DNA from: Eledone cirrhosa | Lineage: Eukaryota | Length of the DNA stretch: 64,000 bases | NCBI GenBank assembly: GCA_964016885.1 | Contig: OZ024742.1 | Span: 91,574,001 to 91,638,000 of the forward strand | Direction: 5' to 3' | Shown here: in pieces, positions 10,715 to 50,037 of the stretch | Layout: each line of letters begins with the position of its first letter | Position numbering within the stretch: position 1 is the stretch's first letter | Notes under the pieces: model-generated | What the model was told of the DNA's origin: nothing | The model's input: the letters and a program-made list of their open reading frames with translations, nothing else | Databases searched by the model: none | Made by a program: the position numbers and the translations under genes

Positions 10715-10778
10715 ATTTTATCTGATGAGGACGTACTGAAAAAACAGCACAGTTGCTCCGAAAAATATATAATAAAAT
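10715..10778 (+). ncRNA. Hammerhead ribozyme motif (type I, Penelope-type), slightly degenerate
   Basis: ATTTTAT-CTGATGA(10722-28)-GGA...TCC-GAAA(10760-63)-A ATAT ATA-ATAAAAT. Stem I is 7 bp. Stem II is GGA/TCC plus an inner ACTG/CAGT. One stem III mismatch. Confidence 0.6.
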
Positions 10779-10944
10779 ATATTTTGATTACGTGAATGTC
10801 TACATTTATTAATATTTTGAATTAATATATATACATATATATATATATATGTATGCCCCAAATGTACATGTAAACACAAAATTGTATAGAAACATGCGCG
10901 CATATATATCCACATATATATATACTCATATACCAAATACACTT

Positions 10945-41884: not shown

Positions 41885-42182
41885 TTCAAGCGTCCTACAA
41901 GATGGTGTAGGACATAACAAAGGAGAGACACAAAATAAAAATCCAGTCACTGAGGAGGTCACAGAATGTATGATGAAAGATCTTCGACAATATATAAACA
42001 ACCATCCGGTTATCGAACCAACCAACCAGCCAACCAGCCGGAAATTTATGATAAATTGAAGTGAAAACCAACAGATGTGTGTGTTTTTATTGGCAACATG
42101 ACCCTCCCTAATTATAAAAATATATGTTTTAACACACGTTTTTAGATAAGAAATCTTGCAAAACAAATTCGAAAACGAAGTG
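41885..42182 (+). mobile_element. Non-coding HHR-bearing element (Penelope pLTR-like), homologous to 47796-48264; HHR motif at 41946-41988
   Basis: GTCA-CTGAGGA-GGTCACA...TGAT-GAAA-GAT-CTT-CGAC. Shares the AACC repeats and the TTGGCAACATGACCCTCCC end. Terminates at (CA)n. Confidence 0.7.
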
Positions 42183-43979
42183 TACACACACACGCACACG
42201 CACACGCACACACACACACACACACACACAGAATTAATTATATATTTACCGATTTAGTTCTCTCACCATCACTCTCAATGTTTGTGTAACTATTGTTTTA
42301 TTCACCAGGTTCAACGAATCATATTCATTTTTTCTTTGTGTAATATTTCAGAGAACAAACCTTTGCTTCCTCCTCACTGATTAACCTTTTAAACAGACTC
42401 TTCAATCCATCGTTAAATTATCGACAAGACACCACTCATTTCATTACAGCAAATATTGTAAATGAAATCGATTGCATGTCGTACCCTTATTATATGTATC
42501 AATTAAAGGAAGTCCACGTTAGGATGTCACACACGTGTTACCCAGCCAGGGAAACATTCATCCGTAACATAATTCTCCCATTCCTTACTAGAGTAAATTG
42601 TAAGTACCCCCTCCCCCCACACACACGCAGTTATATGCATTATATACATGTATTGTTTGATCTGGATTAGGGATCAGCAATTTTACTTGTTTTACCCATA
42701 GTCCACATATCTTTCATAGGATAATTTTGAAAAGGCTCCTACAGAACACTTCAATGGGGTACATGTGCGTTACACTCTACCTGTTGCCGGACCCTGGTTT
42801 TGGTGATCGACGTTGTTGATGGAGACAAGCTATCTATGATTTTATTTATGTTTGTCACTTAATCCCATGTTATTTCATACATGCACATACAATAGTATAT
42901 CCTGGGGTTTAAAAAAGGGGTCTCGAACTCAAGAACTCAAAAGGCCCACTACGTCTTGGAGGAGAGGCACAGCGGACCCAAAGTGAGATGAGTGGTGGCA
43001 TGATTTCCACCAGTTATAATACTAATCTGCAATACAGCTGATAGACTGTTATTCATTATTTCTGCACCAAAATGACTACACATATGACAGTAAGTGGGAT
43101 ATGGGAATTAATACAATATGTAGTGGAACAAATTTTCCATTTCAAATTTTCCTGATTCCTATTTTTACTTTTAGTAAATTCATGTTTTTCTATTTATTGT
43201 ATTTCATGGGTAAAATACTATAAATTGTACTAAAAATATTATTTAAAAAGCGACAAATTACCGAGTTGTAGGAAAATATTAGTCTCAAACATTGTTCTGC
43301 TACGGGATAAGTGGTTTGCGGGGCGCATGATTGAGATCGTCCTGTCTTCAACAACAAACACTGATGTAACCTATAATTTCTTTGTTGATGATCAAACAAT
43401 CCACAATGGAAATATCTACAAAATAAATAAAAAATAGCTGATTTTAATAACAAAGTTTTCACCTGATGTAGTTAAACCTTAATAGTTGAACCTGGGAAAT
43501 TTACTTTCAAAACCAAAACAACTTTATGACAATGGTTTTTGTGAATGGATGTTAGAAACTTTTCAGTTTTAGAATCACCAAATCATGAGCAACTCCATGA
43601 CACCACCGACTTATTCGTTTGTACTTCCCTCATTACCTATGCTGTATCCACCATACTAATCATGTTATTATTCATTTTAACATGTAAGTGCCAACTTGTA
43701 GGTGTACACGACACTTTTAGAAGATTTAATATCTGAGACATTCACTTCAACGTGTTCTTTTTATTTGTCTACTTTCTTATTACTTAGGCCATGTTACCAA
43801 ATACGCATTGTCGGGCTTCCAAATAACTAAACTTATCTCTTATGTGTATTTGTATCCCATTCCACAATGCTTCAAGCAAACACCTTATTACAATCATTGT
43901 GTTTTCAGTTACAAGTGTGAGTAATGTTGGTCGGGTTTTGTCAGCATTTCAATGAGAGTAAATGGGGGTAGCGAATACA

Positions 43980-45464
43980 TTTGTCCAATACAGTGATGAT
44001 AGGAACCATGGGCGGGATACAGTGAGAAATGTGTTTCTGTAATCAATTCCACGCAGTCCGTCAATAAATCGACAGCTGGATGAGCGGGGACTGTAGTGTA
44101 GAGGGAGACAACCTCGAGGCTAAAGCCGTATCTATTTAGTTTAAGTTGTTCTGGCTGGAGTTGGTGTAGTCTACGTATGACTTCGTCGGAGCTACGGACA
44201 TGCCCGGGAAAGGTGGAGAGTAGAGGCTTGAGGACCTGGGAGAGGAGCCAGGAAATTTTGTATAGGGGTCCTTCTATGCTAGAGACGATGGGTCTTATTT
44301 GTGTCTGTCTTAGTACGATTCTTGTGGGTCTTGATGAGGTGGTAGAAAGTGGGCAGTCTGCTATTTCTAGTGGTGTAGTTGAGCTTAACTTTATTTGGAA
44401 GTTGTCTTCTTCTACAGATGTCGAACCAGATGAAGTTGGTCTGTTATTCGATCTGGGCTGCAGTCATGTCCGGGATCTCTGTATATAGTACATTGTCGCT
44501 TAGGTGTTCAAAGTCTAGGTTGTTGTATGTGGCTTGAGAGATGACGCAAAACTCTTTACCTTTGTCGGATGGTAAGTATATAAGTTCCCTATTCCGTAGG
44601 TTCTTCAGGGTGAGTTGTTGTGTCCTGGAGAGGTTTGGGGCTATCTTCTTCTGTTTCTGTAAGATGTTAAATACGGAATGTTTTAGCCTCGAGAGTTTTT
44701 CTTCAAGCTCGCGGTTGGCAGGCGGTGGACAGAGTGGGCGATCCAGTTGGTATATCGGGAATCTGGGTTTGTTAGATTCCGTGGTGTTGTTGCCGAGAGT
44801 CGATATCCATTTTAGTTGGTAGGCAGCCCGACATAAATTTGTTTCTATGTCGAGCCATAATTTGTCGTCCAGTCTCTGTTTCAATATGAACTTGGGACCC
44901 AGGCTGAGGAGGTCTAATTCCTCGCGGGAGAGGGATCCTGTCAAGTCTGTGACGAGGTGTTTTGCGTCAGGTGTGTTGTTGGTCGGGGCGCCGCTAGGCT
45001 AGGTGTTGGTACTGTCTTGTTCGCCTCTTCTTAGAGTTGGGATGTTGTTAAAACGGTTAGCCGTGCTGAATTTGAGAAATTTTTGCGTTAGGCGTATTTT
45101 CTCGTAGTCTCGGCGATGGTGGTATGACCTGTCTATAGCGGCGGAGATAACTCTGGACGGAAGTTCTGGGGTTTCAGCGAGTTGTGGTACAAGGCTGGAA
45201 ATAGTCCGTATGTGTTGTTGTAGCGTGCGGTGTAGGTGTTGTATGTGTTTTCTTAGGCAGAATTTTTGTATGTAGCTAAGTGATCGTTTGAGGCCTGGTG
45301 ATTTGAAGCATGTTGGTAGGTGCAAGTTTTTGATAGTTTTGGGGATGATGTTGTTATTCAGGCATCGTTTTAGGAAGTTTATTTGGCAGCCGGCTTTGGC
45401 GCCATTTCAGATAGCTGGAAGAGTTTCTTTACAGTTGTGAACTAGGCCTAGCTCAGGCGTAAGG

Positions 45465-45979: not shown

Positions 45980-47795
<1,816 letters not shown>

Positions 47796-47803
<8 letters not shown>

Positions 47804-48208
47804 ATACTTTGGGAGGGTCATGTTGCCAATAAGAAACACACGCACCAGTTGCTTTCACTTCAATTTATTATTATAATAAATTTATAATAAATTTATAAAT
47901 TTATAAATTTCTGGTTGGTTGGTTGGTTCCACAACCAGATAGTTGTTTATATATTGTCATAGTTCTTTCGTCACACACTCTGTGATCTCTTCAGTGACTG
48001 GGGATTCCTTTCTTTGTTTCTGTGCCTCTCCTTTGTTCTGTCCTACGCCATGTTGTTTCTGTGTGTGTGTTGTGGAACCAACCAACCAACCAGAAATTTA
48101 TAAATTTATAAATTTATTATAAATTTATTATAATAATAAATTGAAGTGAAAGCAACTGGTGCGTGTGTTTCTTATTGGCAACATGACCCTCCCAAAGTAT
48201 AACAATAT
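47796..48208. repeat. Perfect 140-bp inverted repeat (47796-47935 / 48069-48208) with a 133-bp spacer
   Basis: Arms are identical by inspection, including the internal ATAAATTT and AACC repeats. Confidence 0.95.
47956..47998 (-). ncRNA. Minimal hammerhead motif inside the inverted-repeat spacer
   Basis: GTCA-CTGAAGA-GATCACA(GAGTG)TGTGAC-GAAA-GAA-CTA-TGAC. Stem I is GTCA/TGAC. Confidence 0.65.
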
Positions 48209-48262: not shown

Positions 48263-48314
<52 letters not shown>

Positions 48315-48394
48315 GTTATTCCGGGTTGAATCGGAGGTAACCACAGTAAGTAAGGTACTCAATACATTGCAGAGTATAAAAGTTTTAATATAGA

Positions 48395-48449
48395 TGAGAT
48401 TCTACAGGACTAGAACTGTTTCATTCTTTAGAAATCATCAGGAATCTCA
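48395..48449 (-). ncRNA. Intact canonical type I hammerhead ribozyme
   Basis: TGAGATTC-CTGATGA-TTTC(TAAA)GAAT-GAAA-CAG(TTCTAGTC)CTG-TA-GAATCTCA. Stem I is 8 bp, the core is complete, stem III is 4 bp and the cleavage triplet is GUA. Confidence 0.8.
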
Positions 48450-48590
48450 GAGATTCCTGATGATTTCTAATCCTGTAGAATCTCATCTATATTAAAACTT
48501 ATATATATATATATATATGAGTGTGTGTATTTAATATAAAGATGGCTTCTACAGGACTAGAACTGTTTCATTCGGGCGAAATCAAATATT

Positions 48591-49595: not shown

Positions 49596-50037
49596 TTATT
49601 TAGGCACAATGCCAGCAATTTTAGGGGAGGGGAAAGTCGAATAAATCGACATCAGTGCGTGACTAGTACTTTATTTTATCGACCCCGTAAGGATGAAAGG
49701 CAAAGTTAACCTCGGCGGGATTTGAACTCAGATCATAAAGGGCCGTACCTCTCTGCTGCAAAGCAGGTCGTCAGACTCTCTACCGACACTGCCAATCTAC
49801 CGCCCTCTTCCTGTTCTCTTTAATAGTGTTTTGTTTTTCTTAGATACTGCTCAATATATACTTGTAATCGGTAGAGGGTCGGACGCCATGCTTTCCAGCA
49901 TAGTTACGCCCCTTTACGATCTGAGTTCAAATCCCGCCGAGGTTGACTTTGCCTTTCATCCTTACGGGGTCGGTAAAATAAAGTACCAGTAATGCACTGC
50001 GTAATTGCTGGCCTTGTGCCTAAAGTAGAAACAATTA
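49596..50037. mobile_element. Two young SINE-A copies in inverted orientation (49596-49805 minus, 49868-50037 plus)
   Basis: Both match the consensus and lie ~60 bp apart. Confidence 0.88.

What the first reader, a model, noticed from the sequence alone, without database searches (positions are those of the whole stretch)
48381..48583. Intact monomer-competent hammerhead facing a crippled mirror copy
Seen: the minus-strand HHR 48449..48395 has all core bases, an 8-bp stem I and a 4-bp stem III, with predicted cleavage between 48403 and 48402. The adjacent inverted copy (48450-48500) lacks 18 nt including GAAA. A third, 5'-truncated copy (48545-48583) has a different stem II (TTCG-CC-CGAA vs TTC-TAAA-GAA) that keeps the pairing. 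This is the best candidate in the window for a live ribozyme.
Basis: partly seen in the sequence, partly recalled or inferred. Interest (0 to 1): 0.75.

Follow-up and report, generated by a model that had tools for sequence, protein, structure and literature searches.

The report
Penelope retrotransposon stub with buried hammerhead
This is one of about 2,800 tiny mirror-image insertions of the front end of a Penelope-like jumping gene; its hammerhead (self-cutting RNA) motif is real but of a described kind, is predicted to be locked inside its own mirror copy here, and was likely copied from an RNA that had not cut itself.

Summary
The hammerhead core, helices and predicted cut site (48403/48402) are as described. 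But position 10.1-11.1 is U·U, the native stem I is 6 bp (two pairs come from the insertion junction), and copy 3 differs only in loop II. The long arm is 134/134 identical to the end repeat of a Hydra-clade Penelope-like element with an open 713-aa RT/endonuclease frame. The genome holds 2,805 such head-to-head stubs. The 18-nt gap is a private slippage lesion. This copy has no promoter and folds into a -73.8 kcal/mol hairpin, so it is a poor candidate for a live ribozyme; conservation across subfamilies suggests the motif works in the parent element. Junctions stop at a TATA-defined +1 with an extra C (76 of 100). Both arms share variants (25 of 2,805 discordant), and neither arm consistently reaches further. 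This favours two cDNAs made from one capped, uncut RNA and joined head to head, rather than the published self-priming idea. The scan reached this model before on other DNA of this genome. Side finding: a 377-kb satellite of 78-bp hammerhead units on C28.

The parts
48265..48313 (.). (TA)n tract, left target of the insertion
   Evidence: sequence
48314..48447 (-). Long arm: bases +1 to +134 of the element's end repeat (pLTR), hammerhead plus tail
   Evidence: 134 of 134 identical to promoter-linked copy L064
48314..48379 (-). Tail, present on this arm only (+69 to +134)
   Evidence: 48 of 50 junction loci have one long and one short arm
48397..48447 (-). Native type I hammerhead motif: 6-bp stem I, core 48441-48435, U·U at 48434/48423, 3-bp stem II with 4-nt loop, GAAA 48422-48419, 4-bp stem III with 8-nt loop holding a CUAG palindrome
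48402..48403 (-). Predicted cleavage site after GUA (+45)
   Evidence: hammerhead numbering applied to the sequence; cleavage untested
48448..48450 (.). Head-to-head junction: three letters that are not in the parent element; the outer two are the extra C of each arm's antisense strand (likely cap-templated)
48451..48500 (+). Short arm, +1 to +68, with an 18-nt deletion (+21 to +38) between 48470 and 48471, in register with two TTCTA repeats 18 nt apart
48501..48518 (.). (TA)n tract, right target
   Evidence: sequence
48530..48584 (-). Separate single-arm fragment of a sister subfamily (stem I 3' strand GAAGC, loop II GCCC), cut within the core; cannot form a hammerhead
   Evidence: sister forms

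Best explanation
48314-48500 is a young, promoterless, head-to-head insertion of the first 134 and first 68 bases of a Hydra-clade Penelope-like element in a (TA)n tract, likely made when both ends of a cut target primed reverse transcription on one capped, uncut element RNA, and its hammerhead is predicted to be locked in a hairpin at this locus. Shown: identity with the element's end repeat, an open RT/GIY-YIG frame behind other copies, the one-long-one-short arm rule, junctions at +1 with an extra C, and matching variants in both arms. Inferred: +1 is the transcription start (TATA box 30 bases upstream, initiator-like letters); the extra C copies the cap; the two arm ends (+134 and about +60 or +68) are two internal priming sites; the two cDNA 3' ends anneal through 1-6 bases and fill in. 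The hammerhead is the very 5' end of the parent RNA. It likely cuts slowly and conditionally (as a dimer or with protein help); a cut would remove the cap and 45 bases, and at the 3' repeat would separate the priming sites from the reading frame, so it would act as a brake or processing step rather than a requirement for these insertions. The 18-nt gap is a slippage lesion private to this copy.
For: Element: L061 carries an open 713-aa frame 182 bases behind +1, with RWR, DKT, YRDD, CxCx5C, IVY..YIG, CxxC, CxH and no GxKF/Y, the Hydra diagnostics of PMC8557442 section 11. 3,233 copies carry the TATA box upstream. Junctions: 2,805 head-to-head loci of this family at the hammerhead 5' end against 39 in a similar span at the cut site. 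Of the first 50 listed, all fetched: 48 have one long and one short arm, 27 distinct junctions, 1 reaches into upstream DNA, long arm reaches further 5' in 23, short arm in 21, equal in 4 of the 48. Non-native base after +1: C 76, A 13, T 11 of the first 100 of 2,298 (hand count); none of the 20 C loci among 30 fetched continues into promoter DNA. Loop II variants disagree between arms in 25 of 2,805 loci, where random pairing at the 30:20 split of the first 50 would give about 48%. In vitro, an anole PLE cuts and extends both strands, starts at two internal sites, uses uncut RNA, and its hammerhead needs the protein (PMC11167929). Folding. Selection on the motif in parents: loop II varies while 70 of 100 rows keep stem and loop III exactly (hand count); a compensatory stem I change in L013 and L128.
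Against: +1 and the cap are inferred from DNA only. The cut-site pattern misses short arms that end near +60 (17 of 50), so 39 is an undercount. 11 of those 39 junctions fit two cDNAs ending exactly at the cut site (hand count; 7 loci inspected), so some templates may have been cut; the same junction can also arise by microhomology. Cut RNA may simply decay or bind poorly, so the ratio says nothing on cleavage rate. The commonest short junction splits 7:3 in the direction that a fold-back from the long arm would give. The extent score counts shared microhomology on one side. The loop III palindrome is not exceptional among permutations of its letters (12.5% of 840 pair as well). Pfam gives only a weak GIY-YIG hit (E 0.012) and no RT hit. 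Clade placement rests on motifs; no tree was built.
Confidence: 0.75

Rival explanations
1. One reading: this locus makes a live, monomer-acting ribozyme, with a disabled mirror copy beside it.
For: All core bases are present and stem III has an 8-nt loop. An isolated 55-mer has two extra stem I pairs. The axolotl HHR_Amex2, also with U·U at the base of helix II, self-cleaves 22% in an hour as a monomer (PMC7229834 passages), so a synthetic 55-mer may well cut slowly.
Against: No promoter at this copy (against 13, 71). The mirror arm gives a -73.8 kcal/mol hairpin and a predicted hammerhead share of 4e-30. The motif is letter for letter the family form, with thousands of equal copies. The deletion variant is 1 of 11 in the genome and unique in its letters.
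Confidence: 0.06
2. The mirror arm arose by fold-back or self-priming (the hypothesis of PMC3846280: self-priming on an antisense template, or a cDNA that folds back on itself).
For: It explains matching variants in both arms and junction palindromes; published for rotifer PLEs. The 7:3 skew at the commonest short junction leans this way.
Against: The short arm reaches further 5' than the long arm in 21 of 48 loci, which copying of the long arm cannot give; the short arm lacks the tail and cannot template it. Junctions stop at the sense-strand +1 with an extra C, in this locus on both arms. Several junctions would need a 1-nt hairpin loop.
Confidence: 0.15
3. The two arms come from two RNA molecules held together as a hammerhead dimer through stem III.
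For: Stem III duplex -12.8 against hairpin -1.4 kcal/mol; loop III is kept across subfamilies; metazoan PLE hammerheads are described as dimer-acting (PMC4209133).
Against: Only 25 of 2,805 loci have arms of different loop II variants, about what point mutation could give; two transcripts from one source locus are not excluded.
Confidence: 0.04

Closest known systems
Hydra clade of C-terminal endonuclease Penelope-like elements (Craig et al. 2021, PMC8557442; passages, section 11 and supplement parts 1, 2, 52 read)
   Same: Single RT/GIY-YIG frame with RW(K/R), DKT, CxCx5C, CxxC and CxH; (TA)n target; type I hammerhead in the end repeat; U·U at 10.1-11.1 with a short stem II in 14 of 26 Hydra rows of File S2 (hand count); inverted truncated copy and one-sided tail.
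   Different: Loop III is 8 nt with an inner palindrome (1-3 nt in the S2 rows); the tail is about 66-75 bases (30-40 in the paper); the inverted unit shrinks to 190 bases and its junction peaks at one base.
PAc, Poseidon element of the green anole (Frangieh et al. 2024, PMC11167929; parts 1-2 of 4 read)
   Same: Two adjacent internal priming sites matching the tail, both strands cut and extended, uncut RNA used, AT-rich target.
   Different: There the hammerhead overlaps the start codon; here it lies at the predicted RNA 5' end, 182 bases before the start codon. Head-to-head joining was not addressed in the parts read.
Inverted pLTR insertions of Adineta vaga Penelope elements (Arkhipova et al. 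2013, PMC3846280; passages read)
   Same: Head-to-head inverted end repeats, junction palindromes, optional tail, TATA plus initiator-like letters in the end repeat.
   Different: That paper favours self-priming on an antisense template; the junctions here point to a capped sense template copied twice.
Axolotl HHR_Amex2 and non-LTR retrozymes (Cervera and de la Pena 2020, PMC7229834; passages read)
   Same: Type I motif with U·U at the base of helix II; weak as monomer, stronger as dimer.
   Different: Retrozymes are tandem units of about 220-350 bp in the passages read; this locus is not tandem. The 78-bp array on C28 resembles them in layout only.
Untemplated 5' guanine of full-length LINE-1 insertions (PMC9341517; passages read)
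   Same: Extra G before +1, read as a copy of the cap.
   Different: One arm only in LINE-1; here it appears on either or both arms.

Membership tests
Type I hammerhead ribozyme | Core C3 U4 G5 A6 N7 G8 A9, G12 A13 A14, A15.1-U16.1, H17 | tested here: met
   core definition as in PMC3088659
Type I hammerhead ribozyme | Three helices around the core, stem I open | tested here: met
   stem I 6 bp native (8 here), stem II 3 bp, stem III 4 bp; not the lowest-energy fold
Type I hammerhead ribozyme | Paired 10.1-11.1 (consensus G-C) | tested here: not met
   U·U; a described natural variant (PMC3088659; 14 of 26 Hydra rows)
Type I hammerhead ribozyme | Conserved loop I / loop II tertiary contact | tested here: inconclusive
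   loop II takes 19 forms in 100 rows and stem I starts at the predicted RNA end; no 3D test
Type I hammerhead ribozyme | Site-specific self-cleavage | not testable with these tools
   needs a bench assay
Hydra-clade Penelope-like element | Single frame with RT and C-terminal GIY-YIG | tested here: met
   713 aa, YRDD at 347, IVY..YIG at 585-604; Pfam GIY-YIG weak, E 0.012; 1,403 unnamed homologues at E <= 1e-20
Hydra-clade Penelope-like element | RWK motif, DKT, no GxKF/Y | tested here: met
   RWR at 38 (R for K), DKT at 116, no GxKF/Y
Hydra-clade Penelope-like element | CxCx5C linker; CxxC and CxH in the endonuclease | tested here: met
   566, 666 and 694
Hydra-clade Penelope-like element | (TA)n target and hammerhead in the end repeat | tested here: met
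Hydra-clade Penelope-like element | Generally under 3 kb | tested here: inconclusive
   frame is 2.1 kb, but the two +1 sites of L061 lie 5,966 bases apart, with long simple repeats between
Hydra-clade Penelope-like element | Placement in the RT tree | not tested
   no tree built with the published Hydra proteins
Non-LTR retrozyme | Hammerhead units in direct tandem | tested here: not met
   this locus is head-to-head; a tandem derivative exists elsewhere
Non-LTR retrozyme | Circular monomer RNA | not testable with these tools
   needs RNA data

The most novel reading that the evidence does not exclude
Penelope-like elements build their mirror-image insertions by copying one capped, uncut sense RNA twice, from both ends of the cut target, and joining the two cDNAs head to head; the hammerhead at the RNA's very 5' end is a slow, dimer- or protein-gated decapping brake, and the same motif has been amplified into a 377-kb satellite of about 4,800 hammerhead units.
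Probability: 0.5. Interest if true: 0.6.

Novelty: new member of a known kind. Interest (0 to 1): 0.33.

Why it matters
As a single ribozyme the locus matters little: it is one of thousands of equal copies and is predicted to be buried. The family matters more. How Penelope-like elements form inverted insertions is named as open in PMC8557442, and PMC3846280 proposes self-priming on antisense RNA. Thousands of junctions here give sharp predictions (cap dependence, one RNA, two primed ends) that the in vitro system of PMC11167929 can test. They also extend to a genome scale the in vitro result that uncut RNA is the template. I did not find the two-ended, cap-marked model in print in searches; the scan's own notes already hold it for this genome.

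Tried and rejected
Rfam: no hammerhead family matched. Solved structures: 3 weak, unrelated hits for the 713-aa protein. RNA runs: no RNA holder listed, so expression and RNA ends were not examined. Contigs of four runs laid on 48312-48500 showed no piece spanning the stretch, so the 18-nt gap is not confirmed outside the assembly. Retrozyme reading for this locus: rejected, not tandem. Designed 'crippled' partner: rejected; the mirror arm is complete in other copies (a set biased towards the query) and the deletion falls on either arm among the 6 of 11 loci fetched (4 short, 2 long). Compensatory stem II change in copy 3: rejected, loop only. Selection on the core inside the C28 array: not seen (core 2.8% against 1.7-4.9% elsewhere, 797 of 817 sampled units kept after dropping 20 with over 8 differences). 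Lunse et al. on dimeric PLE hammerheads could not be read; only its title was seen, and it may already describe this architecture. The supplements of the bioRxiv retrozyme preprint were not seen and may bear on the smallest known unit size. Searches found nothing on this family's hammerhead or on such a satellite.

Full report
Observation. The minus strand at 48449-48395 carries a complete hammerhead core with a GUA triplet; the cut is predicted between 48403 and 48402. It is the only match in the window to a type I descriptor, against a mean of 0.09 in 100 shuffles. The mirror copy lacks 18 nt and the third copy lacks the start of the core, as reported. Three details differ. The pair closing stem II is U·U and stem II has 3 pairs. 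Only 6 of the 8 stem I pairs are native. The third copy keeps the same stem II pairs and differs in the loop only. Rfam does not recognise the motif.

What it belongs to. The window lies in a 3.0-Gb genome. A 31-letter piece of the motif occurs 10,993 times and a looser pattern 39,243 times, with 1 control hit; a few thousand of these come from one tandem array (below). Many copies have a shared upstream region with a TATA box 30 bases before the first base of stem I (3,233 copies), and some run on into a reading frame. L061 holds an open 713-aa frame that starts 182 bases behind that base. It has RWR, DKT, YRDD, a CxCx5C linker, a GIY-YIG-type motif, CxxC and CxH, and no GxKF/Y. These are the features given for the Hydra clade in PMC8557442 section 11. 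Pfam support is weak and I built no tree. The window's long arm (48447-48314) matches +1 to +134 of promoter-linked copy L064 at 134 of 134 bases, so the insertion is young.

The motif is a described kind. In File S2 of PMC8557442, 14 of 26 Hydra rows have U·U at this position with a short stem II (hand count). PMC3088659 reports U10.1-U11.1 as a natural variant (passages). What differs here is loop III: 8 nt with an inner CUAG palindrome, against 1-3 nt in those rows. The hairpin is weak (-1.4 kcal/mol) against a two-strand duplex (-12.8), and the hammerhead fold has a predicted share of 8e-4 in the 55-mer (tertiary contacts and Mg2+ are not modelled). The palindrome is not exceptional among permutations of the loop (12.5% of 840 do as well). 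Across subfamilies loop II takes 19 forms in the first 100 rows while 70 rows keep stem and loop III exactly (hand count), and stem I shows a compensatory change in L013 and L128. So the fold is likely under selection in parent elements. Metazoan PLE hammerheads cut poorly alone (PMC4209133, parts 1-2 of 4 read); a U·U axolotl motif cuts 22% in an hour as a monomer and better as a dimer (PMC7229834 passages).

This locus. It has (TA)n on both sides and no promoter. A minus-strand RNA entering from outside would contain the mirror arm and fold into a -73.8 kcal/mol hairpin, with a predicted hammerhead share of 4e-30. A plus-strand RNA would carry only the deleted copy in sense. The deletion removes +21 to +38, in register with two TTCTA repeats 18 bases apart. 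Eleven such deletions exist genome-wide and this one is unique in its letters. Of the 6 fetched, 4 are on the short arm and 2 on the long. It is a slippage lesion.

How such stubs form. There are 2,805 head-to-head loci of this family with the junction at the hammerhead's 5' end (4,803 with sister families), against 39 in a similar span at the cut site (an undercount, as short arms ending near +60 escape that pattern). I fetched all of the first 50 loci listed. 48 have one long arm (+133/134) and one short arm; the short ends fall in two classes, scored +73 (25) and +60 (17), scores that include chance matches into (TA)n, so the true ends are near +68 and +58-60. There are 27 distinct junctions and 1 extends into upstream DNA. 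The first non-native base after +1 is C in 76 of the first 100 of 2,298 hits (hand count), and none of the 20 C loci among 30 fetched continues into promoter DNA. An extra G before +1 is read as a copy of the cap in LINE-1 insertions (PMC9341517 passages). The two arms disagree in the loop II variant in 25 of 2,805 loci, against about 48% for random pairing. The long arm reaches further 5' in 23 of 48 loci, the short arm in 21, equal in 4. Together this fits two cDNAs primed from the two ends of the cut target at two internal sites of one capped, uncut RNA, and joined by their 3' ends. PMC11167929 shows both-strand extension, two internal start sites and use of uncut RNA in vitro. The published alternative is self-priming on an antisense template (PMC3846280 passages). 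Against my reading: the commonest short junction splits 7:3 the way a fold-back would predict; 11 of the 39 cut-site junctions fit cDNAs ending exactly at the cut, though microhomology can give the same; and nothing here measures RNA.

Earlier notes. The wording 'two-armed, both ends of a break' came from notes seen, before I ran the junction tests. I had the cap reading before one search showed a note with the same model for another locus of this genome. These notes are not independent evidence.

Side finding. The strand excess, and joints, led to a tandem array on G000:C28, about 30,496,750-30,873,750: about 377 kb of 78-bp units, each the whole hammerhead plus short flanks, roughly 4,800 units by length (ends and interior sampled, not read through). 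It begins with a long arm set head to head against the array. 202 of 382 sampled units keep core and stems, and changes fall on the core as often as elsewhere, which points to DNA-level expansion. In two adjacent units the dimer fold scores -12.5 against -5.7 for two monomers, but a misfold scores -20.4. A 7-unit copy lies at C1:350.2 Mb. Growth of satellites from PLE end repeats is discussed in 10.64898/2026.07.22.740005 (part 1 of 5 and passages read).

Verdict. Real motif, known kind, ordinary decayed locus; the family's junctions make a standing question on Penelope integration testable. Interest 0.33.

Noticed in passing
G000:C28:30496750-30873750 (L215-L223, L234-L236, L239-L245): About 377 kb satellite of 78-bp units, each a whole copy of this hammerhead, all on one strand, starting head to head with a long arm; 202 of 382 sampled units intact; no sign of selection on the core. 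No note naming a 78-bp array was among the 8 shown.
   Followed up: partly
L233 (G000:C1:350200300-350200850): Seven 78-bp units with the C28 array's spacer variants, without tail or (TA)n flanks; likely moved from the array.
   Followed up: partly
window 47796-48208: Perfect 140-bp inverted repeat of another family, (TA)n on the left and an extension on the right, with a CUGAAGA..GAAA core on the minus strand near 47994 that does not fit the type I descriptor; a relative lies at 41950.
   Followed up: no
window 46102-46773: Endonuclease end of another Hydra-type element, 48% identical over 226 aa to the L061 protein.
   Followed up: partly
window 10722-10790: Hammerhead-like core with a (UA)-rich stem III, from another repeat family; decayed.
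   Followed up: no
window 49653-49999: 98-bp inverted repeat at 92% of a different dispersed repeat.
   Followed up: no
window 43909-45406: Broken reading frames that look like another reverse-transcriptase element (recalled resemblance; no Pfam match).
   Followed up: no
L061:6784-6603 (minus): The 181-base leader between +1 and the start codon holds four upstream ATGs, three inside the hammerhead, which a cut at +45 would remove.
   Followed up: no
L193 (G000:C1:17059500-17059950): A head-to-head stub of the sister family whose arms differ in loop II and at other sites; possibly two templates.
   Followed up: partly
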